Assembly (NCBI GenBank): GCA_963693365.1
Contig: CAVNZM010000001.1
Location: 1-64,000, forward strand
DNA from: Amoebidium appalachense
Taxonomy: Eukaryota > Protista > Ichthyosporea
Length of the DNA: 64,000 nt
Direction of reading: 5' to 3'
Part shown: positions 4,001 through 58,560 of the stretch, in pieces
Position numbering within the stretch: position 1 is the first letter of the stretch
Layout: each line of letters begins with the position of its first letter
Notes under the pieces: generated by a model
Database searches by the model: none
The model's input: the letters and a program-made list of their open reading frames with translations, nothing else
What the model was told of the DNA's origin: nothing
Made by a program: the position numbers and the translations under genes

Positions 4001-5295
4001 GAGGTCCCGGCAGCGGGGGGGGGGGGGGGGGGGCAGCAGGGCCCCGGGGGGTTAGAGTAGGGCAGCTGGGCCCGAGGGAGGGTTTGCAGAGAGGGCAGCG
4101 GGGCCCTGTGCAGGGGAAGCCCGAGCACGCGCGGGTGTGGGCGGACACAGAGGTAGAAGAAGGGGGGGGGAGGGAGTGCTAGGTGAGTGCCAGGGGAGGG
4201 GAAGCTCGTGGGATGGGGGGGGGGGTGTTGTTTTGTGTGGGTAAACGGGGAAGCAGAGTGCACAGATGGGTGTTATGTTATACACAACACAGAGACACAC
4301 GGGAGAAACACAACCGGAGAGGTGGAACGATAACTGGGGCCATAGGAAATGATTCGACTGCTTGATATTTATTTCAAGATGAAGTCCCTTTTATACTTGG
4401 GAATGTGAAATCGATAAACCAATCAAAAGACGAAAACTATGAGTGAAAAATATATCGATCGAAATGTCTGTCGACACATAGAATATAAAATGCAATCCTC
4501 TAATAAAAGAAACTTCTAATAAAAGCACGGAAACATTTAACAAAATGAAACCACTTATGTAACCATTAGTTCACAACATACATTTATACATGTTCTTATC
4601 ATAACACGTCTAAATATAATTATTCCTAATAGTTGGAGAACATAGCACAATGCTACGTCGTGAGAAAGGAATGGGAAAGGAATGTAAGTTACTATATTTG
4701 GGAAAATACAAACGAGATCTGATTGGATGACATATTTAGATATTGACACAAACGACAATACGTGTGCGTGAGCTAAATATCTCGATGTGTACACAGATCT
4801 AAGATATCGGTGTACACGGAAACAGAAAGGAAAGAAAGAAAGGAAGAAAGGAAAAGAAAAAAGGAAACAAACTACAACAAACTAATAAACATATATAAAA
4901 CTCAACTTCTAAGTCTTGCTGAGAATCAGGGAAGATGACATCCCCACTCAAGGGTTGGAAGTTGGGTTCTCGTGAAGTTTGTTGATGTGACTGTTGATGT
5001 CAATACTCTCACACATGTAGAAGCAGGTGCCGTGAAGTCACAGTCAAGTTTCCCCACTCGAGAAGACAATGGAGAAGACTTGAAGGGGCAAGCCGGGGAA
5101 GAAAACCTATATACATGATGGTATATAAATAAACGACGGATGGTGGAGAAAGAAGTCCCCACTGAAGATGCACACACTGAAGATCGATGAAGACAGCAGT
5201 AGACTTTCGTTGGGAGGTGTCTCTACACGGTGATGTGTAGACCACTGGCCGGGGCCCCAACCTACTTGAAGACCACTGTAGATGAACCGGGGGGA

Positions 5296-5348
<53 letters not shown>

Positions 5349-7595
5349 CTCAGTCACGAAGACTGAGTGAAGCACGGTGCTGCTCGTGGGAGGGCCCGGG
5401 CAGGGGCTTGGTGAAGTTGTCGGCCACGTTGTCTTTGGTGGACACGTAGGTGACGACCACATCCCCACTCTTGATGTAGTCCTTCGTGTTGTGGTACCGG
5501 ACGGCAATGTGTTTGGTTCGGTGCTTGATGCTGCTGGTGTGCAGAAGGGCAATGGTGGACTGGTTGTCACAGTAGACGGGGGTGGGGTCGGTCATCGGGT
5601 AGCCGAGTTCACGGAGGAGATCACGGTGCCAGATGACGTTTTGAACAGCAGCATTGATGGCCAGAAGCTCAGCCTCGGTGGTGGATGTTGCCGTGATGGA
5701 CTGCAGCTTCGAATACCATGTGATGGGTATGCCCTTGAAGAAGATGATGTATCCGGTGGTTGAACGACGGGTGTTGGGGCAGTTGGCAAAGTCGGCATCA
5801 GAATAACACTCAAGCAAGGGGGTGTTGTCGTCGGATGCAGACTTGTCGTAGTGAAGGCCGAGGTTGGAAGTGCCGATGAGGTACCGAACTACACGGAGCA
5901 GACATTCCCATGCAAGTTTGGTTGGGTTGGCACTGAATCTACCGAGGTGGTGATGCCTGCTTGAGGCCGTAGAGTGCCTTCTTGAGTTTCCAGACCTTGT
6001 GCTCGTTGCCGGGGGTGATGAAGCTAGGTGGTGGCTCAATGTAGATGTCTTCTTGAAGAGGACTGTTGAGGAAGGCTGTAGAGACGTCGAGTTGATGAAT
6101 CTCATGGTTGCCGTCCACACCGATGGCAAGGAGGGCACGGACGGAGGAGGACATCACCACGGGGGAAGAGGTGTCACCGTAGTCAACACCGTAGACTTGA
6201 GTGAAGCCCTTTGCAACACCACGAGCCTTGATCTTGGTGTCACCGGCTGAGTTGAGGACTTTCTCAGTCACAATCCACTGGAACTTGATGATGTTGGCAT
6301 GAGGGGGGGATCAACGACGGTGAAGACATCCTTGGTGATGAAGGCTTGGTACTCGGAGGTGAGGGCAGCTATGACGGCATCACCGTTGGGACCGTTGCAA
6401 AGCTTTTGTATGCCCTTGGGGAGTTGGTCAATGTTGATGGTCGGTGCTGTGATGCTGACCAGTGCCGTAGGACCTGGTGGCTTGGTGAGACGTGCAGACC
6501 GACGAAGGTTGGTCTTGGGGGGGTCCTTGAGGGGGGTTGAGGCCGGGGAAGTGTTGTAGGCCGGGACAGGGGCATGGAAGCCAGGAATAGGACCGGTGGT
6601 GAGGGGGGAATCGGTGTCCACAGGGCTGCTCGAGGCCGAGTGGAAGGTGGGGGACCCAGGACGAACCGGAGTCATGTAGCCGGGTTGATGCACAGCAACG
6701 GGGGGTGCCGGTAGCAAGGGTTGTTGGCCAGTGGGGGGGGGGGCTCAGGGGAGGTACGGGTTCGACCGGGGCTGGTTGGTTGTGCCAGGACGGTTGGGAG
6801 ATGACTACAGACGGAATTTCATCGTCATCTTCGGAGGGGGGGTCCAATGTCGGCAGATCGGGTTTGGGGGGATCGGGGACCTGATTGGTGCTGCTCGTGA
6901 ATTTTGACTCGTCAAAGATGACGTCACGGCAGATCTTGACTTGGTTGCTGGCACGGTGGAGGATCTTGTGCGCCTTGGAGGGCAGATCCCAGCCGACGTA
7001 GGTGCCGACTCTGACGGTTGATGCAAGCTTGTTCCTCTTGGATCGGGGAACATGCACATAGGCAGGGGAGCCGAACACGTGGAGCTGGGAGACGTCGGGT
7101 TTGAGGCCGTGGAAGGCCTCGAAGGGGGTGTTGCCGTTGGAAGCAGATGACGGTGTGACGTTGATGATGTAGCCAGCATGTTTGAGAGCAGCAACCCGCA
7201 ACTTGGGAGAGAGAGGTTGATCCTTTTCTGCATGGAGGAAGCAACGGACTGTCTCTTGAAGTTCTCTCATCTTCCGTTCAACAACACCGTTGTGCTGTGG
7301 TGTGTCGACGGGGGCAAACTCCATGTTAATGCCTTTCTGCTTGCAGTAGGCCTCGGTGTCCTTGGATGTGAACTCAGAGCCGGAGTCAAACCGAAGATGG
7401 GTGACGATCTCAGGTGTCTGTCGTTCGACAGTTTCAACTAGAGACTGATTGTAGCTGAGGGTTTCAGCACGGTTGTAGAGGGGGAACACGGTGGTGTAAC
7501 CGGTGGCATCACAAACTGTTGGAAGATGGTATCGTTATCCAGTCCGATCGCATGAATCAGATCATGATCGGCTGGTGGCCTGCGAGATCTTAACC

Positions 7596-7668
7596 GATCT
7601 CGTAGCTCAGTTGGTAGAGCACTCGACCGGAGATAGAGGGGTCGCGGGTTCAAATCCCGTCGGGTTCA
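7596..7668 (+). tRNA. tRNA-like sequence in TRIM LTR (probably non-decoding)
   Basis: 73-nt cloverleaf, A box TAGCTCAGTTGG, B box GGTTCAAATCC, T5 run downstream; C33, G-A mismatch in anticodon stem, one acceptor mismatch. Confidence 0.8.
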
Positions 7669-7965
7669 TCTTTTTCTCATCCTCTTCTCGCTGGGGTAAA
7701 AGCCAGCACGCCTTTACTGGCGTCATCACAACCATTGGCAGTGGTTAGGTTGTGATCTCAAGGCTAGCAAGATCGCTAGTCTCTGCACCAGGACAAAATC
7801 CAAAATGGTAGCATGAACAGGGGTTCAGTGGGGACTGAGGGGGCAGTCCACCCTAACCTGATTCTGCGATTCGTCCTGAGTGGGGATGTTGGAAGATGGT
7901 ATCGTTATCCAGTCCGATCGCATGAATCAGATCATGATCGGCTGGTGGCCTGCGAGATCTTAACC

Positions 7966-8038
7966 GATCTCGTAGCTCAGTTGGTAGAGCACTCGACCGG
8001 AGATAGAGGGGTCGCGGGTTCAAATCCCGTCGGGATCA
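7966..8038 (+). tRNA. tRNA-like sequence in TRIM LTR (probably non-decoding)
   Basis: Same cloverleaf with fully paired acceptor stem GATCTCG/CGGGATC. Confidence 0.82.
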
Positions 8039-10897
8039 TCTTTTTCTCATCCTCTTCTCGCTGGGGTAAAAGCCAGCACGCCTTTACTGGCGTCATCACA
8101 ACCATCGGCAGTGGTTAGGTTGTGATCTCAAGGCTAGCAAGATCGCTAGTCTCTGCACCAGGACAAAATCCAAAACAAACACACACCAGAGCAACCTTGT
8201 AGCCTCCGTAGGAAGCACAGGGAGCTTCGAAGAAGTCCAGGTGCCACTTAGCACCGGGGATGGTGAAACGGGAACGGGTGCCGGGAAATGGAGCCTTGGT
8301 GGTCTTGCCAGACATGCAGCCGAAGCAGTCACTGTGGTCGTGTGACTTGAGGGAGGGGGGCATGCCGATGACAAGCTCATTCTTGGCCATTCTGGTGACG
8401 GTGGATAGGGCACGGTGGCCGAGACGGTTGTGCCAAAGGGTAAGGTCGTCGGTTGGTTGAGTCCTTGCTGTGTAGGCTTGGACCCACGGGTGTTGAGGGG
8501 TGTCAATCACGTAGTCAGTGATGTAGTAAAGGCCGTTGAGGGGAGTGAGGTCGGAAATAATGTCACCATTACGGCTGTAGAGGAACGACGGATGAGTGTC
8601 TGCATCGTCACAGTGACCAAGGAGGCCGGCAGTTGAGGCCATGGAGGCAGACACGAGGAAGGACGGTGACTCGGGTACGTAGAGAGCATTGATGCTGCAC
8701 GGGGTTGAGTTGCCGTTGTAGTGCAGGGTCATGTTGATGATGCCACGGTGTGTGGCATTGACGGTGCCAAGGCCGTGAATGGGGGTGGGGGGACACGGGG
8801 TAAGGGAGGAGAAATACTCCTTGATGGGGCAGATGTGTGCATTACAAGCATTGTCCCAGACGGGGTCGTCACGGTCGGGTGTGCCGGTGGAGGAGATGAG
8901 TGCAAATTGCACACTCTTGTTGCCTTTCTCCTGCTTGGCACGACGAGCAACAGCACAGCCAGGCTCTGGGCATGATGTGATGTGGTGGGGTTCATGGCAG
9001 TAGGAACACTCCACTCTCTTTTTGTTGTGCTGTCGGTTACGGTTGTCCCTGTTACCACGGGGGTAAGGGGAAGTTGAACGGGGGCCGGGTGACTTGGAGG
9101 ACGGACAAGGATCACGGGAACGGGACGGGGAACGGTGAGGTGTATGCTCACGTCAGGGATACGGTTACGGAGGTCACCGGGGGGAAGCACTCTGCTCTGG
9201 AGTGCACGAAGAGGACAGTTGTTGACGGTTGCACCAGTCCCTGCGTCTATGAGGCCGGCACGGATTTCAGCTCCTCGGATGTCACTGATGAGCTGGTTGA
9301 AGGACGGGTAGGCCTTGTTGTTCATCCAGTAGTCGGAGCAGAGACGTTCAATGTCGGAGCAGACCAGGGCCGTGTTCTTCCGGAGGTGAAGGAAGAACTT
9401 ACGTACGACATCCTTGTGCTGGACGGGCTCGTCGAGGCAGGCAAGTGTCGTAGCCAGACGTTGGAGACGGGTGAGGTATGCTGTGACGTCACGGTTGGGG
9501 TAGTCTCGGAGTTCAAGCTCCTCGCAGGTGGCTTGAATCTGGTGACTCGGGCCTCCTTCTCTGCCACATACGCCATACGCAGGTTGTGGAAGACTTCTCC
9601 ACCGTGAACACCGTCTTGCATCCGGCCGGAGTCGTAGAGCTCTGTCGGATGGACGGACTGGTTGAGGATCTGGTCGAGGACGTCGGAAGCTTTCTTGTAG
9701 GAGTCCTTGGTGGCGTAGCCTAGCCACTGGTTGGCCTCAGTGCCGTCAACCCACTGTGGCCTCTTGATAGCGTCAACGAATTTCTCGGCAATGGTTGTTC
9801 TAATGAACCGGTGGATAAGTGGCTCCCACTCGAAATAATTGAGACGTTTCTCGTCTCTTTTCTCGGACGGATTCCATATTGCAAGGTTGATGTACGACGG
9901 TTTGTCAGTCATGATTGAAGCGGTAAGACGGAGGAATTTCGCGGTTGTAACGAGATTGTGTGTTAGCGTGCAAAGGGGCCGTAAACCTGTTGTTTTGTGT
10001 GGGTAAACGGGGAAGGAGAGTGCACAGATGAGTGTTATGTTATACACAACACAGAGACACACGGGAGAAACACAACCGGAGAGGTGGAACGATAACTGGG
10101 GCCATAGGAAATGATTCGACTGCTTGATATTTATTTCAAGATGAAGTCCCTTTTATACTTGGGAATGTGAAATCGATAAACCAATCAAAAGACGAAAACT
10201 ATGAGTGTAAAATATATCAATCGAAATGTCTGTCGACACATAGAATATATAATGCAATCCTCTAATAAAAGAAACTTCTAATAAAAGCACGGAAACATTT
10301 AACAAAATGAAACCACTTATGTAACTATTAGTTCACAACATACATTTATACATGTTCTTATCATAACACGTCTAAATATAATTATTCCTAATAGTTGGAG
10401 AACATAGCACAATGCTGAGAAAGGAATGGGAAAGGAATGTAAGTTACTATATTTGGGAAAATACAAACGAGATCTGAATGGATGACATATTTAGATATTG
10501 ACACAAACGACAATACGTGTGCGTGAGCTAAATATCTCGATGTGTACACAGATCTAAGATATTGGTGTACACGGAAACAGAAAGGAAAGTAAGAAAGGAA
10601 GAAAGGAAAAGGGAAAAGGAAACAAACTACAACAAACTAATAAACATATATAAAACCCAACTTCTAAGTCTTGCTGAGAATCAGGGAAGATGACAGGGGG
10701 GGGAGTAAAAATTATGTGCAGTGGGCAGAATAACGTCTTTGTGTAGGGACATTTATTCTTGGCGCGCGCGGGCGCCGTAGTTGGCCTGCGAAATTTTGTA
10801 CTCAGCCCTATTGGCCCGTTTTCCCGAGCTCCGTTTCCTTATACCCGTGTGTCCTAGCTCCTAGCCCCTATGTTCTATCTGTGTTTGTGCACGTAGA

Positions 10898-15346: not shown

Positions 15347-16000
15347 TCTATGAAAACTACTCCGGGACGTGTGTTGCCTCTAGGGGGACATCCCCTTGGA
15401 CGAAAGTGAACCTGCAATGGTTGTAAACCACGGCAAGCCCCCAGTCATCAATTTATTGATCCGTGAGGTCCATGTGCCCAAAAAACGGGGGAAGTCTTCA
15501 CCCCGTGAAAAAACAGCACGTATGTGTGGATCAATGGGGGTTGTGTGTGGGTGTAGGTGGGTGGGTGAAAAAGGAATATATAGCTGTAAGGCTGTGGATG
15601 CTAAACACAGAAGATGTGTTTGTAGCTTGCTGATCTGCTAAAAACTGTCGTGCTTATATACCTAAGCCTACCGATCTGAGCCAAAAAATCGATCTAGTGA
15701 TATGTGAAATCTGATCCGAGCCAATCATAACTCGGTCTAGTGATCTGTGGTATCTGATGTTTTGATTGGCTAATAGGTGCCCGTGTGCGGGCAGCCAACC
15801 GCTAACTGCTAAAACACGAAATGAAGCCTACATGGTTATGTTGGTATCGAACACCCATCCTACGTGTTTACCCAGAAAAATATTTATGTCAATAATTTCC
15901 ACAAATAAAACCTCTATGAAAACTACTCCGGGACGTGTGTTGCCTCTAGGGGGACATCCCCTTGGACGAAAGTGAACCTGCAATGGTTGTAAACCACGGC
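15347..16000 (-). repeat. Split direct repeats of N4: B2 15347-15434, A2 ~15566-15912, B1 15913-16000 (A1 ~27211-27599)
   Basis: Direct comparison of the copies; B1-A2 junction ttcataga|ggtttt equals the joined element ends. Confidence 0.9.
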
Positions 16001-16029
16001 ACGAGAGCAGTATGCTTGCTCCAAAGGTT

Positions 16030-24503: not shown

Positions 24504-24536
<33 letters not shown>

Positions 24537-25575
24537 AAAAGTCCAAACTTTAATTTTGTTTTCCGTTTCTGTTCTCAAGTGGGGAGATTTCACTAGTTCA
24601 GTGGGGATATGATAACACAAACTTCAAAGTCTTAAGTGGGGATGTTATAATACGTGGTATTTACATATTGTAAGATCTTCTCAGTTCGTGTTATGTTTTC
24701 ATTCATTCCCTTAGTGAAAGAGATGTGCTCCTTGTACGTAAATTATGAGATCGATCTCCAGTGTATTTGAGTACTTGTAATCGTGTTGTGTCGGCTATAT
24801 TCGTGTGTTTAGATATCGATTACAGCAACTGATTATAGGTACACGAGTCTACCCAGTGAGGGAGAAACGTGTACATGTTATGTGTACATGAATATCTTCG
24901 GTTATAACTGTGTTTTGCTGTTCGTGTTTTCTGTCCTGCTTTCTTTTCTTTTTCCTCTTTCTTCTTCTTTCTTTTCTCTTTCTTTCTTCTCTTGTTTCCT
25001 TTCACATAATTATATTTCTCTCTCACTAATATACGTTGAGTAGATTTATATTACTCGTTATGTTTTGATTGGTAGAAAAACACTTAGGCTACACTTTAGC
25101 TTGTCAGGTATGATTCATAGCTTAGTCAAACACTTTTGTTTTGTGTGTTGCCGTACTATATCCAATCAGTGGACTTAGTCAGAAAATGTCTGAGTCTTTG
25201 TAGCCGATGATAGGTTAGAAACATCACCTCTTTCCTCGTTACTCTTCACCTCTTTTCTTTCTTATAGCTGTGACCTATGGTGTGCGTTCCTGTGCCTCCG
25301 GATCTATCCGGGAAATAATCAGTTAATTGTGATTGGTTATATTAGACATAGATCTGATTTCCGACTGGTCGGAAATCATGTATGGATTTAACTTAAGGGA
25401 ATTTCAGGTATTTATTAGCGATCAAAATAAATTGAGTTCAGTCGTGTCTAAACATTGATGTCTGTTGTGTACACTGCTCCGATCGTTTCGTGCTTTGTCG
25501 TTGTGTGTGTTTGTGGTGTTTTCACACTGCACCACTGTGTCTCTGCTTTCATCCCAAATACTTATACAATTAACA
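18799..25575 (+). mobile_element. Full-length copia B1 (LTRs 18799-19731 and 24643-25575)
   Basis: 933-bp near-identical LTRs, TSD ATCCC, PBS ggttatgcagccc, PPT aagtgggga. Confidence 0.96.
19794..24197 (+). CDS. gag-pol: Copia B1 gag-pol polyprotein (frame breaks in C homopolymers near 22330 and 23510)
   Basis: Order Gag CCHC, protease WDSGC, integrase HHCC and DDE, RT YVDD, RNase H is the copia order. Confidence 0.92.
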
Positions 25576-25585
25576 ATCCCGGCAG

Positions 25586-25616
<31 letters not shown>

Positions 25617-26005
25617 CGGCAGGGCCCCGGGGGGTTAGAGTAGGGCAGCTGGGCCCAAGTGAGGGTTGGCAGGGAGGGCAGCGGGGCCCTGTGCAGGGAA
25701 TGTGCCCGAGCACGCGGGGGTGTGGGCGGACACAGAGGTAGAAGAAGGGGGGGGGAGGGAGTGCTAGGTGAGTGTAAGGGGGGGGGGGAAGGCTCGTGGG
25801 GGGGGAGTAAAATTATGTGCAGTGGCCAGAATAAACGTCTTTGTGTAGGGACATTTATTCTTGACGCGCGCGGGCGCCGTAGTTGGCCTGCGAAATTTTG
25901 TACTCAGCCCTATTGGCCCGTTCTCCCGAGCTCCGTTTCCCTGTACTCGTGTGTCCTAGCTCCTAACCCCTATGTTCTAGCTGTGTGTGTGGGTGTGCGC
26001 GTAGA

Positions 26006-27180
26006 CTAGGCATTGTGCTTGCAGTCTTTGCGGGGGTGTGTGCCAGAGCAGAGCGGGCACACGTGGGAGAAGGGGCAGGGCTGCTTAGCGCAGGACCGAC
26101 CGTTAATGTGGAAATTCCGGCAGTGCGTCGCGGGTACTACTAGATCCACGGGTCGGGCCGGTTTTGCCGGGCCGGGTTGCGGGCCAGGGCGGCTAGGGGT
26201 TTGACCCCCCGCCGGGCTTGTGGGGCGGCTTAAAGCCGTCAAGACCACAGCCTGGCTTGGGGTACATGGGGCAGGCCGCGCTGGGGTGGTCGGGGAAGCC
26301 ACAGCGCTGACATGCGTCCGGGATGAGTAGAGTGGGTGGCAGGAGGAGATCCTGGTGGAGTTGGGCGAGCAGGTTGGGACACTCGATCGGAGCCCGACCC
26401 TGCTGATGGGCAACGGTGCGGGCGTATACGTCATAGTTGTGGATCTGGGCCCACGGGTATCGGGTGCTGAGGCGAGTGATGTGCTGAGTCCAAAGTACGT
26501 CTTTGTCCGTGGGGAGGCCGAGGTGGTGCTTGGCGGCCATGTAATGGGTCCAAGCTTGGATCCAAATGACGAGTGAACGCAGGGGAACGGGTCTGTCTTG
26601 GCGAAAAGTCTCGATGCTGCCGTCGTCGGCCATGCGCAGATGCTGACCTTTCTTGGATGAGGCCAGGAGGGCGGCGGGGGTGAACTTATACAGGTCAACG
26701 AAACGATTGGCGCGCAAATCTGCCAGCACATCCGCGGGGGGAAGCGGGAGTGTGCCCGGCTGAATGTCGCCAGTGTTCTCACCTGTGATGGGGGGCGCGG
26801 GCAGGGCAGGTAGGTCTAGGTCAGGGCCGAGATGCAGCCCCGGGGAAACCTCCCCGGGTGTGGAGGGCGCGGCGGGGGCCGCGGGAGGGTCGCGGTTGGT
26901 GAGAGCAGCCAGGACGCCAGCCATCTGGGTGCTGATGGCGGTGAGGGCGGCCAGGACGGCGTCTTGAGAAGTCATCTGCGGGGACGGCGGGGCCTGAGGG
27001 GGGACTTCAGGAGTGGAGGGGAGAGTAGCCGGCGGGTCCGGGTCCGTGGTGGTATGGGCCGCTGGAGGCGCGTCAGTGTCCGCGGGAGCGTTGGTCAGCC
27101 TGTGGCGGAGGTCGCTGCGGGTCAGGCGCTTAGGTGCCGGCAGGGGCGGCGGCTGAGGCCTGGCGCTTTTTCGGCGGCAT
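26006..27180 (-). CDS. gag: Ngaro N4 gag (frameshifted)
   Basis: Same protein as 58800-59970; CCHC and CCCH-like fingers. Confidence 0.85.
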
Positions 27181-30100
27181 GCTGACCGGCGTAGGGAAAG
27201 ATAGGGAGAATGAAAAAGGAATATATAGCTGTAAGGCTGTGGATGCTAAACACAGAAGAAAAAGGAATAGCTGTAAGGCTGTGGATGCTAAACACAGAAG
27301 ATGTGTTTGTAGCTTGCTGATCTGCTAAAAACTGTCGTGCTTATATACCTAAGCCTACCGATCTGAGCCAAAAAATCGATCTAGTGATATGTGAAATCTG
27401 ATCCGAGCCAATCATAACTCGGTCTAGTGATCTGTGGTATCTGATGTTTTGATTGGCTAATAGGTGCCCGTGTGCGGGCAGCCAACCGCTAACTGCTAAA
27501 ACACGAAATGAAGCCTACATGGTTATGTTGGTATCGAACACCCATCCTACGTGTTTACCCAGAAAAATATTTATGTTAATAATTTCCACAAATAAAACCT
27601 AAACACGTGCAGAGTGGTGCTGGGCAATGCACGATGCCACAGCACTAACAGAGAGGATAGTGTGGAGAGGTAGAAACACAGTTGCATGTTCTGTCAATCT
27701 ACGTCTAATTTATTATGCTCGATTCTCACCTATTTATCTGCCGCAGGCAGATTCCATGAATACAGATCTATCCAAAGGTATTTGCGCATCTGATTGGCAT
27801 ATACTATGAATACTATAAATCTGACCAATCATATAACGACACGTACATGAACGGAAATCAAACTGCATTCCCCTCATACGGTCCAAACGCAGACAAAACA
27901 CCCAACTACACAGAAACCAAGAAAAGCACTCAGTCTGGCATGCACAACAATCGTCGGATGCGTGCTTTCCTCTCGCTATCGCCAATAGCTAAACAAACTA
28001 TGAATACCACACGTGCCTAATGAATAACAGAGAGCAAACAAGAGCATGCCGGACATGCTTATGAAATAAAGGGAGATAAAGCACAAATAAACGATCGTAC
28101 CTAACTATGTATGCTATGTGCTCGTGCAAGTTGTGTAAACCAAAGATGTGCAACTAATGAAGAATCGTGCTGTGCACATGCGTGCGAAATGCATATGCCA
28201 ACTCGTGCACTATTATTGTATATTCTGACAAGAAGGAGGCTCGTGTCACTCAGATTCAAGTCACCTACGAGGAGCTTGAACTACGAGACTTCCCCAACGT
28301 CACAGCGTAGAACGGTGGATGAGTGGCTCCAATTCGAAATAGTTGAGACGCTTATCATCCTTCTTCTCGGACGGATTCCATTGTGGAAGGTTGATGTACA
28401 ACGGTTTGTCAATCATGGTTGAAGCAGTATGTACGGAGGAATTTCGCGGTTGTAACGAGATTGTGTGTTAGCGTGCAAAGGGGCCGTAATTGAACCTGTT
28501 ATTTTGTGTGGGTAAACGGAGAAGCAGAGAGCACAGATGGGTGTTATGTTATACACAACACAGAGACACACGGGAGAAACACAACCGGAGAGGTGGAACG
28601 ATTTCTGGGACCATAGGAAATGAATTTAACTGGGTGATATTTATTTCAAGATGAAGTTCCTTTTATACTCAGGAATGTGAAATCGATAAGCCAATCAAAA
28701 GAACGAAAACTCTTTTATCCAATCAGAAAGACGAAAACTCTGAGGGTAAAATAAATCGATCGAAATGCCTGTCGACACATAGAAGATAAAACACAATCTC
28801 CTAATGAAAGTAATCTTCTAATGAAAGTACGGAAACATTTAACAAAATGAAACCACTTATGTATCTATTAGTTCACATTTTATACATGTTCTTAACATAA
28901 CACGTCTAATATGAGTATTCCTAATAGTTGGGGAACATAGAGCAATGCTACGTCGTGGGAAAAGAAGGAAAAGGAATGAGGATAGAAAGGAATGGAATGG
29001 GAAAGGAATCGAGTAGAATTAATGAGGAATGTAGGTTACTATATTTGAGAAAATATAACGAGATCTGATTGGACAACTTATTTAGACATTGACGAAAACA
29101 ACAATACGTGTGCGCGGGCCAAATAGCTCGATGTGTACACAGATCTAAGATTGTCATCTTCACTTGATTCTCAGCAAGACTTAGAAGTTGAGTTTTGTAT
29201 TTATTTATTAGTTGTTGTAGTTTGTTTCCTTTTCCTTTCTTCATTTCTTTCTTTCTTTCCCGTTTCCGTGTACACGACATCTTAGATCTGTGTACGTATC
29301 GACATACTTAGCTCGCGCACACGTATTGTCGTTTGCGTCAAAATCTATATATGTCATCCAATCATATCTCGTTTGAATTTTCCCAAATATAGTAACTTAC
29401 ATTCCTTTCTCATTCCTTTCCCACGACGTAGCATTGTGCTATGTTCTTCAACTATTAGGAACAATTATATTTAGACGTGTTATGATAAGAACATGTATAA
29501 ATGTATGTTATGAATTAATAGTTATATAAGTGGTTTCATTTTGTTAAATGTTTCCGTGCTTTTATTAGAAGTTTCTTTCATTAGAGGATTGAGTTTTATA
29601 TTCTATGTGTCGACAGACATTTTAATCGATATATTTTACACTTATAGTTTTCGTTCTTTTGATTGGTTTATCGTTTCACATTCCCAAGTATAAAAGGGAC
29701 CTCATCTTGAAATAAATCGTAAGCAGTCGTATTCATTTCCTATGGTTCCAGAAATCGTTCCACCTCTCCGGTTGTGCTTCTCCCGTGTGTCTCTGTGTTG
29801 TGTATTACATAACACCCATCTGTGCTCTCTGCTTCTCCGTTTACCCACACAAAATAACAGGTTTACGGCCCCTTTGCACGCTAACACTCAATCTCGTTAC
29901 AACCGCGAAATCTCTCAGTCTTACTGCTTCAATCATGACTGATAAACCGTCGTATATCAACCTTCCAATATGGAATCCGTCCGAGAAACGAGACGAGAAA
30001 CGTCTTAATTATTTCGAGTGGGAGCCACTCATTCACCGGTTCATTAGAACAACCATTGCCGAGAAATTCGTTGACGCTATCAAGAGGCCACAGTGGGTTG

Positions 30101-30825
30101 ACGGCGCTGAAGCCAACCAGTGGCTAGGCTACGCCACCAAGGACTCCTACAAGAAAGCTTCCGACGTCCTCGACCAGATCCTCAACCAGTCCGTCCACCC
30201 GACCGAGCTCTACGACTCCGGCCGGATGCAAGACGGTGTCCACGGTGGTGAAGTCTTCCACAACCTACGTATGGCGTATGTAGCAGAGAAGGAGGCCCGA
30301 GTCACCCAGATCCAAGTCACCTTCGAGGAGCTTGAACTACGAGACTACCCCAACGTCACAGCATACCTCACCCGTCTCCAACGTCTGGCTACGACACTTG
30401 CCTGCCTCGACGAGCCCGTCCAGCACAAGGATGTCGTACGTAAGTTCTTCCTTCACCTCAGGAAGAACACGGCCCTGGTCTGCTCCGACATTGACCGTCT
30501 CTGCTCCGACTACTGGATGAACAACAAGGCCTACCCGTCCTTCAACCAGCTCATCAGTGACATCCGAGGAGCTGAAATCCGTGCCGGCCTCATCGACGCA
30601 GGCACAGGTGCAACCGTCAACAACCGTCCCCTCCGTGCACTCCAGAGCAGAGTGCTTCCCCCCGGTGACCTCCGTAACCGTATTCCTCGACGTGAGTTTG
30701 TCCTGGTGCAGAGACTAGCGATCTTGCTAGCCTTGAGATCACAACCTAACCACTGCCGATGGTTGTGATGACGCCAGTAAAGGCGTGCTGGCTTTTACCC
30801 CAGCGAGAAGAGGATGAGAAAAAGA

Positions 30826-30898
30826 TGATCCCGACGGGATTTGAACCCGCGACCCCTCTATCTCCGGTCGAGTGCTCTACCAACTGAGCTACGAGATC
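30826..30898 (-). tRNA. tRNA-like sequence in TRIM LTR
   Basis: Reverse complement of 7966-8038. Confidence 0.82.
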
Positions 30899-31195
30899 GG
30901 TTAAGATCTCGCAGGCCACCAGCCGATCATGATCTGATTCATGCGATCGGACTGGATAACGATACCATCTTCCAACATCCCCACTCAGGACGAATCGCAG
31001 AATCAGGTTAGGGTGGACTGCCCCCTCAGTCCCCACTGAACCTCTGTTCATGCTACCATTTTGGATTTTGTCCTGGTGCAGAGACTAGCGATCTTGCTAG
31101 CCTTGAGATCACAACCTAACCACTGCCGATGGTTGTGATGACGCCAGTAAAGGCGTGCTGGCTTTTACCCCAGCGAGAAGAGGATGAGAAAAAGA

Positions 31196-31268
31196 TGATC
31201 CCGACGGGATTTGAACCCGCGACCCCTCTATCTCCGGTCGAGTGCTCTACCAACTGAGCTACGAGATC
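31196..31268 (-). tRNA. tRNA-like sequence in TRIM LTR
   Basis: Reverse complement of 7966-8038. Confidence 0.82.
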
Positions 31269-32930
31269 GGTTAAGATCTCGCAGGCCACCAGCCGATCAT
31301 GATCTGATTCATGCGATCGGACTGGATAACGATACCATCTTCCAACAGTCCCCTCCGTGCACTCCAGAGCAGAGTGCTTCCCCCCCGGTGACCTCCGTAA
31401 CCGTATTCCTCGACGTGAGCATACACCTCACCGATCCCCGTCCCGTTCCCGTGATCCTCGTCCTTCCTCCAAGTCACCCGGCCCCCGTTCAACTTCCCCT
31501 TACCACCGTGGTAACAGGGACAACCGTAACCGACAGCACAACACCAAGAAGGTGGAGTGTTCCTACTGCCATGAGCCCCACCACATCACAGCATGCCCGG
31601 AGCCTGGCTGTACAGTTGCTCGTCGTGCCAAGCAGGAGAGAGGCGACAAGAGTGTGAAATTTGCACTCATCTCCTCCACCGGCACACCTGACAGCAACGA
31701 CCCCGTCTGGGACAGTGCTTGTAATGCACACATCTGCCCCATCAAGGAGTATTTCTCCTCCCTTACCCCGTGTCCTCCCACCCCCATTCACGGCCTCGGC
31801 ACCGTCAATGCCAAACAACGTGGCATCATCAACATGACACTGCACTACAACGGCAAACCAACACAGTGCAGCATCAATGCTTACTACGTACCCGAGGCAC
31901 CGTCTTTCCTCGTGTCTACCTCCATGGCCTCAGCTGCCGGCCTCCTAGGTCATTGTGACGATACAGACAACCACCCGTCGTTCCTCTACAGCCGTAATGG
32001 TCACATCATTACAGATCTCACCCCCCTCGACGGTCTCTACTACATCACTGACTATGTGATTGAGACTCCTAAACACCCGGGGGTCCAAGCCTACACAGCA
32101 AGGACTCAACCACCCGCCGACCTCACCCTTTGGCACAACCGTCTCGGCCACCGTGCCCTCTCCACCGTCACCAGGATGGCCAAAGATGAGCTTGTCATCG
32201 GCATGCCCCCCTCCCTCAAGTCACCCGACAACAGTGACTGCTTCGGCTGCATGTCTGGCAAGACCACCAAGGCCCCCTTTCCCGGCACCCGTTCCAAGTT
32301 CACCATTCCCGGTGCTAAGTGGCACCTGGACTTCTTCGAATCTCCCTGTACTTCCTACGGAGGCTACAAGGTTGCTCTGGTGTGTGTTTGTGATGCCACC
32401 GGTTACACCACCGTGTTCCCCCTCTACAACCGTGGTGAAACCCTCAGCCACATTCAGTCTCTCGTTGAAACCATTGAACGTCAGACACCTGAGATCGTCA
32501 CCCATCTTCGGTTTGACTCCGGCTCTGAGTTCACCTCCAAGGACACCGAGGCCTACTGCAAGCAGAAAGGCATCATCATGGAGTTTGCCCCCGTCGACAC
32601 ACCACAACACAACGGTGTTGTTGAACGGAAGATGAGAGAACTGCAAGAGACAGTCCGTTGCTTCCTCCATGCCGACAAGGACCAACCTCTCTCTCCCAAG
32701 TTGTGGGTTGCTGCTCTCAAGCATGCAGGCTACATCATCAACGTCACACCGTCATCTGCTGCCAACGGCAACACTCCCTTCGAGGCCTTTCACGGCTTCA
32801 AACCCGACGTCGCCCAGCTCCACGTGTTCGGCTCCCCTGCCTATGTGCATGTTCCCCGGTCAAAAAGGAACAAGCTGGCATCAACCGTCAGAGTCGGCAC
32901 CTACGTCGGCTGGGACCTGCCCTCCAAGGC

Positions 32931-35900
32931 TGTTAAATTATATAAGTATTTGGGATGTAGGCAGAGACACAGTGGTGCAGTATGAAAACACCACAGACAC
33001 ACACAACAACAAAACACAGAACGATCGGAGCAGTGTACACAACAGACATCAATGTTTAGACACGACTGAACTGAATTTATTCTGATCTTCGAATAAATAC
33101 CTGAAATTCCTCTAAGTCCAATCCATACATGATTTCCGACCAGTCGGAAATCAGATCTATGTCTAAAATAACCAATCACAATTAACTGATTATTTCCCGG
33201 ATAGATCCGGAGGCACAGGAACGCACACCATAGGTCACAGCTATAAGAAAGAAAAGAGGTGAAGAGTAACGAGGAAAGAGGTGATGTTTCTAACCTATCA
33301 TCGGCTACAAAGACTCAGACATTTTCTGACTAAGTCCACTGATTGGATATAGTACGGCAACACACAAAACAAAAGTGTTTGACTAAGCTATGAATCATAC
33401 CTGACAAGCTAAAGTGTAGCCTAAGTGTTTTTCTACCAATCAAAACATAACGAGTAATATAAATCTACTCAACGTATATTAGTGAGAGAGAAATATAATT
33501 ATGTGAAAGGAAACAAGAGAAGAAAGAAAGAGAAAAGAAAGAAGAAGAAAGAGGAAAAACAAAAGAAAGCAGGACAGAAAACACGAACAGCAAAACACCG
33601 TTATAACCGAAGATATTCATGTACACATAACATGTACACTTCTCCCTCACTGGGTAGACTCGTGTACCTATAATCAGTTGCTGTAATCGATATCTAAACA
33701 CACGAATATAGCCGACACAACACGATTACAAGTACTCAAATACACTGGAGATCGATCTCATAATTTACGTACAAGGAGCACATCTCTTTCACTAAGTGAA
33801 TGAATGAAAACATAACACGAACTGAGAAGATCTTACAATATATAAATACCACGTATTATAACATCCCCACTTAAGACTTTGAAGTTTGTGTTATCATATC
33901 CCCACTGAACTAGTGAAATCTCCCCACTTGAGAACAGAAACGGAAAAAAAAAAATTAAAGTTTGGACTTTTCCGGGGGGGGGGGGGGGGGGGGGAAGGGG
34001 GGGGGAAGGGGGGGGGGGGAGGGGGGGGGGAAGGGGGGGGAAGGGGGGGGGGAGGGGGGAGGAACCGGGGCAAAAACAAAATATATATAACGTGTATAGG
34101 CGGGGTTTTTTAACTGGGTTTTAAACCAGTGAAAGATAGAGGAGAGTGATGGTACAGGTCAAACCTTATATATAAACCCTAAGTGGGCATACCCACAAAG
34201 GCTCATATGAAATATATGTGATAATAAGTAGTAAACAAGAAACTCAGGACCCACACTCCGAAGGTGGGGGCGGGCGGGGAGGTGGTGAGGATCAGCTGTG
34301 TGGGGACAAGTAGTTGACGACAACACCCCGCTCAGGCTGGGGGGGGGAGGATAGGGGATGGGGGTCGAGGAGCACGGTAGACAGGACACGGGGGTCACGG
34401 CATTTGGATGCGGTGTGAGAGCCAACGTGGTGGGGCGACCGGTGGAGGGGATGACCAAGGAGGAGAGATCGTAGTTTGGCGCTGGAGGGGGCGTGAGGTC
34501 TGCTCTCAGGGTGACTGGGAAAGCCCGAAGGGAGGGGGGTAGGTCTTCACGGTTTTTGGGGGAGGCAGGTTTCGGCGGAGGAGGCGGATGGGGCGGGGGG
34601 AGGCAGCACAGCGCTGGCTGGAAGTGGATGGGAGAGGACCGCAGCGCTGCTGGCCGGGGGGGTGGTAATGGGGGGAAATAGCTGCAGGGGTATTCCCTCA
34701 GAGCGGTGGTAGTTGGGACTGAGAGTTCGGATGGGGGAACCGCCGGGAGCGATGGGTGGGGGAGTGACCCGGTGGGGAGAAGGCCGAAAACAGGGTTGGA
34801 AATCCTGGAAGGAAGCCGGGTTGACACGGTCGGTCTGGAGGGACAGGGTCGGGACCAGGGAGGAGGGAAGAGGCGGGGGGAAAGGTAGGGAACGTGCAGT
34901 GCATGGATGATGTCAGTCGGGAGACGGGTGATTCGTGTTGGAACGCAGACGGGGTGTGAAATTATATTCGAATGCGGGTCGACGGGGTCGAAATCGGATG
35001 GAATGGGATTGATCAGGATCCTCAGGCCTGGGTAGACAGGGCGGCGCGGTTGAGACCACGTCGGTGAAGTGTCAAGGAACTGGAGCGCGATGCAGAACCA
35101 AGGGTGGAGGACGGTGGCGTGACGGAGAGAACCAGGAGGAGGGAAGGAGGCGCGTGGAGGTGTCACGGGTGTAAGGCGTGACAAGCCGTCAAGAACAGAT
35201 CTTCAGAGGACACGTGGGACCGGTTACGGACGGACGCCGGGGAGGCCGAGCCGAGAGGCAGGGAGGTGGGAAGGGGACGGACGGAACTGGAACAGCAGGC
35301 GCCAGAGACGGGGTGTGCAGAAAGGCACAGATGGATGCAGGGGACGCCAGGGATGGATGTACACAGCCTCAGCACCAAGATGCCTGAGGAGCTGACCACA
35401 GCTATGATGTGTACCAGGAATTTAACGATCGCTAGGTCTAGGTGTGTGTAGGGAGCGTGCATCTGGGCCCATAACCTGTTAAATTATATAAGTATTTGGG
35501 ATGTAAGCAGAGACACAGTGGTGCAGTGTGAAAACACCACAGACACACACAACAACAAAACACAGAACGATCGGAGCAGTGTACACAACAGACATCAATG
35601 TTTAGACACGACTGAACTGAATTTATTCTGATCTTCGAATAAATACCTGAAATTCCTCTAAGTCCAATCCATACATGATTTCCGACCAGTCGGAAATCAG
35701 ATCTATGTCTAAAATAACCAATCACAATTAACTGATTATTTCCCGGATAGATCCGGAGGCACAGGAACGCACACCATAGGTCACAGCTATAAGAAAGAAA
35801 AGAGGTGAAGAGTAACGAGGAAAGAGGTGATGTTTCTAACCTATCATCGGCTACAAAGACTCAGACATTTTCTGACTAAGTCCACTGATTGGATATAGTA

Positions 35901-36411
35901 CGGCAACACACAAAACAAAAGTGTTTGACTAAGCTATGAATCATACCTGACAAGCTAAAGTGTAGCCTAAGTGTTTTTCTACCAATCAAAACATAACGAG
36001 TAATATAAATCTACTCAACGTATATTAGTGAGAGAGAAATATAATTATGTGAAAGGAAACAAGAGAAGAAAGAAAGAGAAAAGAAAGAAGAAGAAAGAGG
36101 AAAAACAAAAGAAAGCAGGACAGAAAACACGAACAGCAAAACACAGTTATAACCGAAGATATTCATGTACACATAACATGTACACGTTTCTCCCTCACTG
36201 GGTAGACTCGTGTACCTATAATCAGTTGCTGTAATCGATATCTAAACACACGAATATAGCCGACACAACACGATTACAAGTACTCAAATACACTGGAGAT
36301 CGATCTCATAATTTACGTACAAGGAGCACATCTCTTTCACTAAGTGAATGAATGAAAACATAACACGAACTGAGAAGATCTTACAATATGTAAATACCAC
36401 GTATTATAACA
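32931..36411 (-). mobile_element. Non-autonomous LTR element with family B LTRs (35477-36411 and 32931-33863)
   Basis: TSD AAGGC, PBS ggttatgggcccag, B-type 3' UTR and PPT, 1.6-kb interior without gag-pol motifs. Confidence 0.92.
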
Positions 36412-39400
36412 AAGGCACACAAGATCCTTGCCCGTGCCAGCAACCAAATCAAGATCTGCCGTGATGTGATCTTCGACGAGTTAAAATTCACGAGCAGCAC
36501 CAATCAGGTCCCCGTTCCCCCCAAACCCGATCTGCCGACATTGGACCCCCCCTCCGACGACGACGATGAAACTCCGTCTGTGGTCATCTCCCAACCGTCC
36601 TGGCACAACCAACCAGCCCCGGTTGAACCCGTGTCTCCCCCGAGCCCCCCCCCCCACTGGCCAACAACCCTTGCTGCCGCCCCCCCCGTTGCTGTACATC
36701 AACCCGGCTACATGACTCCGGTTCGTCCTGGGTCCCCCACCTTCCACTCGGCCTCGAGCAGCCCTGTGGACACCGATGCCCCCCTCACCACCGGTCCTAT
36801 TCCTGGCTTCCATGCCCCTATCCCGGCCTCCACCACCTACCCGGCCACCACCCCCCTCAAGGACCCCCCCAAGCCCAACCTTCGTCGGTCTACACGTCTC
36901 ACCAAGACTCCAACGGCACTGGTCAGCATCATGGCACCGACCATCAACATTGACCAGCTCCCCAAGGGCATTCAAAAGCTTTGCAACGGTCCCAACGGTG
37001 ATGCCGTCATAGCTGCCCTCACCTCCGAGTACCAAGCCTTCATCACCAAGGATGTCTTCACCATTGTTGATCCTCCCCCTAATGCCAACATCATCAAGTT
37101 CAAGTGGATTGTGACTGAGAAAGTCCTCAACTCAGCCGGTGACACCAAGATCAAAGCTCGTGGTGTTGCAAAGGGCTTCACTCAAGTCTACGGTGTTGAC
37201 TACGGTGACACCTCTTCCCCCGTGGTGATGTCCTCCTCCGTCCGTGCCCTCCTTGCCATCGGTGTGGACGGCAACCATGAGATTCATCAACTCGACGTCT
37301 CAACTGCCTTCCTCAACAGTCCTCTTCAAGAAGACATCTACATTGAGCCACCACCTGGCTTCATCACCCCCGGCAACGAACACAAGGTCTGGAAACTTAA
37401 GAAGGCACTCTACGGCCTCAAGCAAGCATCACTGGCCTGGTATGAGTACTTCGACAAGGTCCTCCTTGCCCACGGTCTCGAACGTCTCCGTTCAGATCCA
37501 TGTGTCTACATCAAGACCTTCCCCAACGGTGACATCATCCTCACTGGCAACTATGTGGACGACGTCATCATCATCTGCACGGCCAACTCTTCCCACACCA
37601 AGGATCTAGTAGACCACATTATGAAGTCAGCTCTCTGCAAGGTTGACCTTCCCGACATCTTCCTTGGCACCCAGCTCATCCACACCCCCGGTCACCTCAA
37701 GCTGCTTCAACAATCCCACATCAACGACATCGTCAGAGACTTCAACCTCAACGATGCTCACCCCAAGGCTACTCCCATTCCCGTCGGCACCGTCATCACC
37801 ATCAACGAGAACGACTCACCACCCATCAAGGTTCCCTACCGTGAACTACTCGGCCGTCTTTTGTGGGTTGCTCGTTGTTCCCGGCCCGACATCTCCTTTG
37901 CCATCGGCTACCTCGGTAGATTCAGTGCCAACCCCACCAAACTTGCATGGGAATGTCTACTCCGTGTAGTTTGGTACCTAATCGGCACTTCCAACCTCGG
38001 CCTTCACTACGACAAGTCTGCTTCCGATGACAACACCCCCTTGCTGGAGTGTTATTCTGATGCTGACTTTGCCAACTGCCCCAACACCCGTCGTTCAACC
38101 ACCGGATACGTCATCTTCTTCAAGGGCATACCCATCACATGGTATTCGAAGCTACAGTCCATCACGGCAACATCCACCACCGAGGCTGAGCTTCTGGCCA
38201 TCAGTGCTGCTGTTCAAAACGTCATCTGGCACCGTGATCTCCTCCGTGAACTCGGCTACCCGATGACCGACCCCACCCCCGTCTACTGTGACAACCAGTC
38301 CACCATTGCCCTCCTGCACACCAACAGCATCAAGCACCGGACCAAACACATTGCAGTCCGGTACCACAACACGAAGGACTACATCAAGAGTGGGGATGTG
38401 GTCGTCACCTACGTGTCCAGCAAAGACAACGTGGCTGACATCTTCACCAAGCCCCTGCCCGGGCCCTCCCACGAGCATCACCGTGATTCACTCAGTCTTC
38501 ATGACTGAGTGTGCCCCCCCCCCCTCCCCCCCCCCCCCCCGTTTCATCTACAGTGGTCTTCAAGTAGGTTGGGGCACTGGCCAGTGGTCTACACATCACC
38601 GTGTAGAGACACCTCCCAACGAAAGTCTACTGCTGTCTTCATCCATCTTCAGTATGTGCATCTTCAGTGGGGATTTCTTCTCCACCATCCGTCGTTTATT
38701 TATATACCATCATATATATAATGTATAGATCATTAGCCACCAACACGTCACACATACACTAGTTGTTTTCTTCTATATATATTTATATATCGTCATTGGC
38801 TACCGTCATCTTCCGAGTCTTCAGAGGCAACCGTCGTTGTGTGCTTCTTCCGTTTTGGTTTTCTTCCCCGGCTTGCACCTTCAAGTCTTCTCCATTGTCT
38901 TCTCGAGGGGGGAAACTTGACTGTGACTTCACGGCACCTACTTCTACATGTGTGAGAGTCTTAACATCAACAGTCACATCAACAAACTTCACGAGAACCC
39001 AACTTCCAACCCTTGAGTGGGGATGTCATCTTCACTTGATTCTCAGCAAGACTTAGAAGTTGAGTTTTGTATTTATTTATTAGTTGTTGTAGTTTGTTTC
39101 CTTTTCCTTTCTTCATTTCTTTCTTTCTTTCCCGTTTCCGTGTACACGACATCTTAGATCTGTGTACGTATCGACATACTTAGCTCGCGCACACGTATTG
39201 TCGTTTGCGTCAAAATCTATATATGTCATCCAATCATATCTCGTTTGTATTTTTCCAAATATAGTAACTTACATTCCTTTCTCATTCCTTTCCCACGACG
39301 TAGCATTGTGCTATGTTCTTCAACTATTAGGAATAATTATATTTAGACGTGTTATGATAAGAACATGTATAAATGTATGTTATGAATTAATAGTTATATA

Positions 39401-39960
39401 AGTGGTTTCATTTTGTTAAATGTTTCCGTGCTTTTATTAGAAGTTTCTTTCATTAGAGGATTGAGTTTTATATTCTATGTGTCGACAGACATTTTAATCG
39501 ATATATTTTACACTCATAGTTTTCGTTCTTTTGATTGGTTTATCGTTTCACATTCCCAAGTATAAAAGGGACCTCATCTTGAAATAAATCGTAAGCAGTC
39601 GTATTCATTTCCTATGGTTCCAGAAATCGTTCCACCTCTCCGGTTGTGCTTCTCCCGTGTGTCTCTGTGTTGTGTATTACATAACACCCATCTGTGCTCT
39701 CTGCTTCTCCGTTTACCCACACAAAATAACAAAGATATCTGTGCACACGGAAACGGAAAGGAAAGAAAGAAAGGAAAAGGGAAAAGGGAACGAACAACAA
39801 CAAACTAATAAACAAATGTAAAACTCAACTTCTAAGTCTTGCCGTTAATCATGGGTATTCCCCCCCCCCCCCCCCCCCCCCCCCCTCTCTCCCTTCCTCT
39901 CTTTCATGCTCTCGATTGCTTTACAGCCCCTGACCTCCCCGGGCCCCATGTCCCCCCCCC

Positions 39961-43097: not shown

Positions 43098-43433
43098 CCC
43101 CCCCCCCTCGCTCCACCCCCCCCACCCCCTCCCCCCTCCTCCTACTCCTACTCACACAGGCTGCCCACACCCACCCAACCACCGCAACCCCCTTCCCCTG
43201 CCTCCCTCCTTGCGCATACCGCGATCCATGGAAACCACTCCCGCATTGGTCCACATAAAACCAACCATGTTAGAGAATGACGTCATGTCCTTGCAATTTG
43301 CAACCCACCAGGCTGACCGTCTTCCTTGGCGCTCCTCAGCTCGGGTGGCTCCGAGGATACTGTATCAACCCTTCACTTTACCCCACCCACCGCGATGCGA
43401 TATCCCTGCACAGCAAACATAGCCAAACCGGGA

Positions 43434-58419: not shown

Positions 58420-58560
58420 GGTTTTATTTGTGGAAATTATTGACATAAATATTTTTCTGGGTAAACACGTAGGATGGGTGTTCGATACCAACATAACCAT
58501 GTAGGCTACATTTCGTGTTTTAGCAGTTAGCGGTTGGCTGCCCGCACACGGGCACCTATT

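What the first reader, a model, noticed from the sequence alone, without database searches (positions are those of the whole stretch)
30626..31419. TRIM U5 end has AA instead of CA, and one copy integrated aberrantly with a 71-bp duplication
Seen: the LTR starts tgttgga but ends tccaaaa rather than tccaaca in all three intact ends (7805, 8175, 31059). Copy 1 has a 5-bp TSD (6 bp is also possible). Copy 2 lacks 8 bp at that same end and is flanked by 30626-30696 repeated at 31348-31419. Known: retroviral DNA with a mutated terminal CA can be joined by integrase at one end and by host repair at the other, giving long duplications. Inference: this is a natural case of one-ended integration.
Basis: partly seen in the sequence, partly recalled or inferred. 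Interest (0 to 1): 0.7.

Follow-up and report, generated by a model that had tools for sequence, protein, structure and literature searches.

The report
AA-ended mini-retrotransposon, one lopsided insertion
A small jumping element that carries a tRNA look-alike ends in AA instead of the usual CA, and one of its two copies here is clipped by 8 bases and flanked by a 71-base duplication, likely because the cell's own repair finished one end of the insertion; nothing found shows that the AA end caused it.

Summary
The element is a 659-bp TRIM (289-bp LTRs, 81-bp middle) with a tRNA-like unit in each LTR: a Helenus-type element, probably in an ichthyosporean. All three intact U5 ends read CCAAAA. 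Copy 1 has a 5-bp TSD. Copy 2 keeps an exact U3 end, lacks 8 bp at U5 and sits between two copies of a 71-bp target stretch that is single in the other Copia copy. This matches one-ended integration finished by host repair, the likeliest mechanism (about 0.6), but one locus cannot exclude later repair, recombination or misassembly, and public contigs showed neither copy's junctions. The causal link to AA is unsupported: AA is the family norm, 8 of 10 listed U5 junction contigs keep the whole AA end, 10 of 56 published Helenus ends read here are non-CA, and long duplications are already reported for HERV-K (8 among 451 putative TSDs). The window control (0 of 7 CA-ended versus 1 of 2) is not significant (p=0.22). 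What is new is modest: a TG...AA terminus on an abundant family, and a likely new host lineage.

The parts
30697..31347 (-). TRIM copy 2 (651 bp), Helenus-type, inserted in the gag-pol region of a Copia A element, opposite to it
31059..31347 (-). Copy 2 5' LTR, 289 bp, TG...AA; its U3 end at 31347 is exact
30978..31058 (-). Copy 2 internal region, 81 bp: PBS TGGTAGCA directly after the LTR, PPT GAGTGGGGA directly before the 3' LTR
30697..30977 (-). Copy 2 3' LTR, 281 bp, lacks the last 8 bp (ATCCAAAA); identical to the 5' LTR over 281 of 281 bases
30626..30696 (+). Left copy of the duplicated target stretch (71 bp, C6 run), joined bluntly to the truncated U5 end
31348..31419 (+). Right copy of the duplicated target stretch (72 bp, C7 run; C6 is the form in the other copy and in public contigs)
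31196..31268 (-). tRNA-like unit in copy 2 5' LTR (Rfam RF00005 57.4 bits; GGA anticodon, one mispair in the anticodon stem), followed by TCTTTTT
30826..30898 (-). tRNA-like unit in copy 2 3' LTR (57.4 bits)
7517..8175 (+). TRIM copy 1 (659 bp), both LTRs end AA, 5-bp TSD CAAAC (7512-7516 and 8176-8180), in the other Copia A copy
7596..7668 (+). tRNA-like unit in copy 1 5' LTR (53.0 bits; one substitution breaks an acceptor-stem pair)
7966..8038 (+). tRNA-like unit in copy 1 3' LTR (57.4 bits)
29152..39731 (+). Host Copia A element of copy 2: LTRs 29152-29859 and 39024-39731 (4 differences in 708), TG...CA, TSD AAGAT; also carries a second Copia (32931-36411)
4226..10695 (-). Host Copia A element of copy 1; supplies the unduplicated empty site for copy 2 (about 9147-9217)

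Best explanation
Copy 2 of this tRNA-bearing miniature LTR retrotransposon likely went in by one end only: a helper integrase would have joined the exact U3 end, and host repair would have joined the other end 71 bases away with loss of 8 bases, duplicating the stretch between. Shown: the element's anatomy, the AA end, the exact U3 junction, the 8-bp loss, the 71-bp duplication and its absence from the empty site. Inferred: that the integrase is a Copia-type one (5-bp TSD, PBS and PPT abutting the LTRs); that after the U3 strand transfer (or after a failed gap repair at the U5 side) the free target end copied 71 bases from the intact strand or sister and was then joined bluntly to the trimmed U5 end. 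The AA end is probably not the cause: it is the family's ordinary terminus, which its integrase accepts, as TA and GA ends are accepted in other Helenus families.
For: [quoted passage not shown] The duplication starts exactly at the U3 junction and the loss lies exactly at the other junction, so one event explains both. The two duplicates are identical but for a homopolymer base and copy 2's LTRs are identical (281 of 281), so little time separates insertion and duplication. Both outer flanks belong to one host insertion (TSD AAGAT), so a simple crossover between two host copies is excluded. For AA being tolerated: copy 1 has a normal 5-bp TSD; 8 of 10 listed U5 junction contigs keep the whole AA end; no CA variant is listed at 1% in 8 runs; summed contig depth over the LTR is of the same order as over the host Copia in X1-X4 (not a copy number).
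Against: n = 1. No exact microhomology at the U5 joint (2 of 3 bases match past a junction mismatch), whereas host-made joints 'usually, although not always' show a short homology. The supposedly normal U3 joint has an imperfect 4-of-5 match (CAACA against CAACC), found at 226 of 4947 host positions (4.6%), so the roles of the two ends could be reversed. Neither junction of copy 2 appeared in public contigs (U3 joint testable in 4 runs; U5 joint testable in 4 other runs), though copy 1's junctions did not appear either. Copy 2's zero LTR divergence does not prove it is younger than its host (P=0.20).
Confidence: 0.6

Rival explanations
1. The insertion was normal (5-bp TSD GTCCC) and was reworked later: a break at the U5 side was repaired by copying 66 more bases from an empty allele or another Copia A copy and rejoining with an 8-bp loss (filler DNA).
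For: Gives the same sequence. Donors abound: the duplicated stretch is the majority form of a very high-depth family (one minor variant listed inside it). Kahyo et al. warn that long duplications may be pseudo-TSDs from later rearrangement (PMC5488345, passages).
Against: Needs an unrelated break within a few bases of the element end in a copy young enough to have identical LTRs. No contig with the predicted normal junction was listed (weak).
Confidence: 0.17
2. Assembly artefact: filled and empty haplotypes, or two repeat copies, were stitched together or mis-polished.
For: The region is nested young repeats; the extra C in the right duplicate is not the family form and looks like a homopolymer error; no contig confirms the junctions.
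Against: A stitch normally needs shared sequence and the U5 joint has none; the window has no N; 8 of the 9 two-ended insertions examined in the window have matching short TSDs.
Confidence: 0.1
3. Two separate TRIM insertions about 66 bases apart in different Copia A copies were combined by gene conversion or by a template switch while the host Copia was reverse-transcribed, leaving a pseudo-TSD.
For: Both families are abundant; both TRIM copies here, and at least one more flank in public contigs, lie in Copia A; another element starting TGTTGGAA sits inside this same 71-bp stretch in one contig (30669); copy 2 need not be younger than its host.
Against: Needs a second, independent cause for the 8-bp loss; needs two same-orientation insertions within 71 bp; the host's outer TSD is intact.
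Confidence: 0.08
4. Reversed roles: integrase joined the U5 side at a cryptic inner end (the LTR ends CAAAA-TC-CAAAA and the cut falls one base short of the inner CAAAA), and the U3 side was joined by repair through the CAAC match, or both ends were joined by integrase in uncoupled steps.
For: Blunt U5 joint next to an inner repeat of the terminus; 4-of-5 match at U3; Ty1 integrase used an inner CA 6 bp from the end in three events (PMC2939329, passages).
Against: The cut is one base off the inner repeat unless the T run is miscalled; those Ty1 events kept 5-bp TSDs; the U3 end keeps its last base, which is the mismatched one; the 4-of-5 match has a 4.6% chance rate before correcting for several looks.
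Confidence: 0.05

Closest known systems
Helenus TRIMs (TRIMp3), fungal type; Kojima 2024, PMC10886601 (main text parts 1-4 of 6; supplement parts 1 and 4 of 11 and one search seen)
   Same: Short non-coding LTR element, tRNA-like unit with A and B boxes in each LTR followed by a T run, PBS and PPT abutting the LTRs, PBS beginning TGGTAGC as in several fungal families, 5-bp TSD, length 659 bp inside the reported 311-1263 bp, non-CA ends occur (8 TA and 2 GA among 56 ends read).
   Different: Ends in AA (0 of the 56 ends read; parts 2, 3, 5-9 not read). Host is probably an ichthyosporean (one homologue, 47% identity), outside the reported fungi, animals and Selaginella. No sequence relationship to a published family was tested beyond three short motif searches.
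One-ended (aberrant) retroviral integration in HIV-1 and ASLV; Varadarajan et al. 2016, PMC5041404 (passages seen; Oh et al. 2006, 2008 and Varadarajan 2013 not held, known only through this paper's summary and reference titles)
   Same: One normal end, one truncated end, host duplication far longer than the usual TSD.
   Different: There the cause was imposed (mutated end, inhibitor, weak integrase) and the aberrant joint usually has a short homology; here the AA end is the family norm and the joint is blunt. The title of Oh 2008 itself says CA is not required at the U3 end.
Long target duplications at HERV-K (HML-2) sites; Kahyo et al. 2017, PMC5488345 (passages seen)
   Same: Natural LTR insertions flanked by duplications of 13-450 bp (8 listed among 451 putative TSDs), with the same doubt between true and pseudo-TSD.
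   Different: Retrovirus in primates; no link to a non-CA end in the passages seen.
Non-canonical LTR ends in plant Copia (Tos17 TG-GA, AtRE1 TA-TA, TARE1 TA-CA, TGTT, AACA, lotus families); 10.1101/137141, PMC9804982, PMC5659011 (passages seen)
   Same: Whole families amplify with non-CA ends; TGTT and AACA families keep 4-6 bp TSDs; in lotus the third motif base is 'the least constrained'.
   Different: TG...AA is not among the motifs named in the passages (lotus: C, G or T at that base; 'tgaa' 0 occurrences). The bioRxiv supplement table of motifs could not be seen.

Membership tests
TRIM | Under 1 kb, two LTRs, no coding capacity | tested here: met
   659 bp, LTRs 289 bp, 81-bp middle; no ORF of 150 aa lies wholly inside either copy
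TRIM | PBS after the 5' LTR and PPT before the 3' LTR | tested here: met
   TGGTAGCA and GAGTGGGGA; the PPT matches those of the window's Copia elements
TRIM | 4-6 bp TSD | tested here: met
   Copy 1 has 5 bp; copy 2 is the exception under study
TRIM | TG...CA termini (usual, not obligatory) | tested here: not met
   TG...AA in 3 of 3 intact ends; published Helenus include TA and GA ends
Helenus (TRIMp3) | tRNA-derived sequence with boxes A and B inside each LTR | tested here: met
   Rfam RF00005 at 53-57.4 bits against a gathering score of 29 in 4 of 4 LTRs; ARAGORN genes
Helenus (TRIMp3) | PBS complementary to a host tRNA | tested here: inconclusive
   Begins like the fungal Helenus PBS tggtagc, which I take, partly from recall, to be the tRNA-iMet 3'-end type; no host tRNA set was available
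Helenus (TRIMp3) | Transcription by RNA polymerase III | not testable with these tools
   No RNA run held the stretch
Helenus (TRIMp3) | Mobilised by a Copia helper (fungal type) | tested here: inconclusive
   5-bp TSD and shared PPT fit; but the three Copia types in the window have GGTT-type PBSs and share only short stretches with the middle (7, 27 and 89 of 300 shuffles reach the score)
One-ended integration product | One end exact, the other often truncated | tested here: met
   U3 exact, U5 lacks 8 bp
One-ended integration product | Long host duplication, deletion or inversion at the aberrant end | tested here: met
   71-bp duplication absent from the empty site
One-ended integration product | Short homology at the aberrant joint (usual, not obligatory) | tested here: not met
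   No exact overlap at the U5 joint
One-ended integration product | The aberrant end is a poor integrase substrate | tested here: inconclusive
   AA end joined whole in copy 1 and 8 of 10 listed contigs; 0 of 7 versus 1 of 2, p=0.22; no rates can be had without the genome
One-ended integration product | Arose at integration, not afterwards, and is present in reads | tested here: inconclusive
   Contigs of 8 runs showed neither copy's junctions; no raw reads offered

The most novel reading that the evidence does not exclude
This abundant family has fixed a TG...AA terminus that its borrowed integrase handles less well than CA, so it keeps amplifying at the price of a raised rate of host-finished U5 ends: a natural, genome-wide population of one-ended integrations that duplicate tens of bases of target, in a lineage where neither Helenus nor such ends were reported.
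Probability: 0.2. Interest if true: 0.6.

Novelty: new variant of a known kind. Interest (0 to 1): 0.32.

Why it matters
If U5 junctions of this family prove aberrant more often than its U3 junctions or than CA-ended families, the genome offers hundreds of natural trials of a question so far studied with engineered retroviruses: how much the terminal CA matters to a Copia-type integrase and how often host repair rescues a half-integration. If not, the value is small: one more natural long duplication, a terminal motif (TG...AA) that LTR finders keyed to TG...CA would miss, and a likely host-range extension of Helenus whose LTRs also inflate tRNA gene counts (four false-looking tRNA-Ser calls in this window).

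Tried and rejected
Public runs: 22 listed, all as contigs; 8 of 22 were laid. (30480-31120; X1, X3, X8, X9) could have shown the U3 junction of copy 2 as a joint and did not; the one joint listed only reflects the LTR repeat. (31030-31470; X2, X4, X11, X14) could have shown the U5 junction as a joint and listed none. Copy 1's junctions were not among the shown rows either, the loose-end lists were cut (20 of 29 and 18 of 36 rows shown) and contigs drop rare forms, so this is no evidence of absence. A 23-base LTR pattern found nothing in metagenome or viral contigs. An end at TCCA plus a 3-base spacer was rejected: copy 1 and 7 contigs join flank after the fourth A. The 89-bp repeat at 15347/15913 looked like a second long TSD but is a partial tandem copy within another family. 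Homologue searches for the Copia polyprotein and the other RT gave only 23-32% and up to 53% identity hits that did not place the host. The Atlas gave no answer. Three primary retroviral papers were not held. Searches for a published TG...AA LTR or a Copia one-ended integration listed none by title or abstract start; these are word searches of open papers only.

Full report
What is there. The window is a pile of nested young retrotransposons, mostly Copia (integrase before RVT_2). Two copies of a small element lie inside two copies of one Copia family ('Copia A'): 7517-8175 (+) and 30697-31347 (-). Each has two 289-bp LTRs around an 81-bp middle with a primer site (TGGTAGCA) and a purine tract (GAGTGGGGA) abutting the LTRs. 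Three of the four LTRs are identical over their shared length; copy 1's 5' LTR differs at two positions. Each LTR holds a tRNA-like unit (Rfam 53-57.4 bits, gathering score 29) followed by TCTTTTT. This is the anatomy of Helenus (Kojima 2024, PMC10886601), which the finding does not mention. A neighbouring host gene has one homologue, 47% identical, from Amoebidium parasiticum, so the host is probably an ichthyosporean; this rests on one hit.

The observation. All coordinates check. The three intact U5 ends read ATCCAAAA; the terminal inverted repeat matches 6 of 7 with the mismatch at the second-last base. Copy 1 has the TSD CAAAC. Copy 2 has an exact U3 end, lacks 8 bp at U5 and lies between 30626-30696 and 31348-31419, identical but for one extra C; the stretch is single in the other Copia A copy. 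The other 7 two-ended insertions examined (all TG...CA) have 5-bp TSDs, one of them ambiguous in a homopolymer.

Is AA a defect? Probably not. I laid contigs of 8 of 22 listed public runs. No CA variant was listed at the 1% threshold, and contigs across the LTR-primer site junction, which templates the U5 end of progeny, match the window without a difference in X8 and X9. Among the shown loose ends (20 of 29 and 18 of 36 rows), 10 contigs carry a U5-flank junction: 7 join exactly after the fourth A (5 in X8, 1 in X3, 1 in X4), 1 runs three matching bases further, 1 reads TA at the end (or lacks 2 bases) in a diverged copy, and 1 lacks 12 bases. At U3, 5 of 8 flank junctions keep the whole end and 3 are one base short (these may be related families); two further X2 contigs were dropped from this count because their loose letters are the element's own middle. 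So U5 is not visibly worse than U3, on small, cut lists whose two ends cannot be paired to give TSD lengths. Summed depth over the LTR is of the same order as over the host Copia in X1-X4, which the tool warns is no copy number but which marks a very abundant repeat. In Kojima's data set I read 56 LTR 3' ends by eye (supplement parts 1 and 4 of 11): 46 CA, 8 TA, 2 GA, no AA; all keep the last A. Plant Copia families amplify with non-CA ends, and in lotus the third motif base is the least constrained, with C, G or T seen. AA completes that series. Against this, Ty1 integrase lost activity when CA was changed to AC, but that change removes the last A.

How copy 2 arose. An exact end, a truncated end and a long duplication are the commonest aberrant product when a retroviral integrase inserts one end and host enzymes the other (PMC5041404). 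Inferred steps: strand transfer of the U3 end at 31347/31348; a free target end at 30625 copies 71 bases from the intact strand or sister; it is joined to the U5 end trimmed by 8 bases. A failed gap repair after a two-ended insertion would give the same product and is counted with this reading. It explains loss and duplication by one event in a copy with identical LTRs. Results against it: the U5 joint has no exact homology; the U3 joint has a 4-of-5 match (226 of 4947 host positions, 4.6%); the cut lies one base short of an inner CAAAA repeat, so the ends' roles could be reversed; and copy 2 need not be younger than its host (P=0.20). Later repair from an empty copy, recombination between two nearby insertions, and misassembly give the same letters. 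The window's own control, 0 of 7 CA-ended against 1 of 2 AA-ended, has p=0.22.

What is known. Natural long duplications at LTR insertions are in print: 8 of more than 10 bp (13-450 bp) among 451 putative TSDs at HERV-K sites, with the same caveat about pseudo-TSDs (PMC5488345). Word searches for a Copia or TRIM case and for a TG...AA terminus ('tgaa' 0 times in the lotus paper) found none, but cover open papers only; the bioRxiv supplement listing non-canonical motifs and seven parts of the Helenus sequence file were not seen and may hold an AA end. Earlier notes of this scan report Helenus-type elements in several other unreported hosts (unchecked), which lowers the weight of the range extension.

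Verdict. Real feature, correctly described. Most likely an integration-coupled, host-finished end (0.6). The claim that the AA end caused it is unsupported (about 0.2). The element is a new AA-ended variant of a class described in 2024. Interest 0.32; it would rise to about 0.6 if a genome-wide table showed a U5-specific excess.

Noticed in passing
window 7596-7668, 7966-8038, 30826-30898, 31196-31268: The tRNA-like unit is nearly intact (acceptor, D and T stems pair; one mispair in the anticodon stem), has a GGA anticodon with a short variable arm (serine tRNAs usually have a long one; recalled) and is followed at once by TCTTTTT, so a Pol III transcript would have to read through this stop in the 5' LTR.
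   Followed up: partly
window 7517-8175, 30697-31347 and about 38791-38815: Both TRIM copies lie in Copia A internal regions (about 15% of the window), and one U5 flank from run X3 matches Copia A near its 3' end over 25 bases: possible preference for this family, or just its abundance.
   Followed up: partly
window 31021-31102 (records 8 and 16): Contigs of 1109 and 1117 bases in X1 and X3 share only the primer site and U5 end (4 other letters, 1 gap): a longer relative, a candidate for the helper or a sister family.
   Followed up: no
window 30669 (X3): In another Copia A copy, an element starting TGTTGGAATACG is inserted inside the stretch that is duplicated here: a second family with a similar 5' end.
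   Followed up: no
window 30864-30898 and 31268: Contigs in X1 and X4 match the tRNA-like unit and then continue with the same other sequence: possibly the host tRNA gene or a SINE from which the unit derives.
   Followed up: no
window 18799-25575, 32931-36411, 49678-56416: A second Copia group with about 930-bp LTRs; very young (2 and 1 differences between LTRs in two copies), GGTTATG primer sites, long open frames, only 25-31% identical to the best database proteins. One has the same TSD, CAAAC, as TRIM copy 1.
   Followed up: partly
window 11727-16001, 25576-27600, 58419-60397, 17126-18862: A further family with head-to-tail partial repeats of about 350-860 bp (including the 89-bp repeat at 15347/15913) beside an RVT_1 frame; not LTR-like at its ends; perhaps Penelope-like or DIRS-like (untested).
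   Followed up: partly
window 57502-58419, 60593-61530, 63668-64000: Three copies of a 920-940 bp repeat starting TGTAAACAAC at 3.1-kb spacing, one after a purine tract; ends not resolved.
   Followed up: no
window 43317-47892 (+): A probably spliced host gene with a GDSL/SGNH-like last part (Pfam below cut-off); best homologue from Amoebidium parasiticum, 47%.
   Followed up: partly
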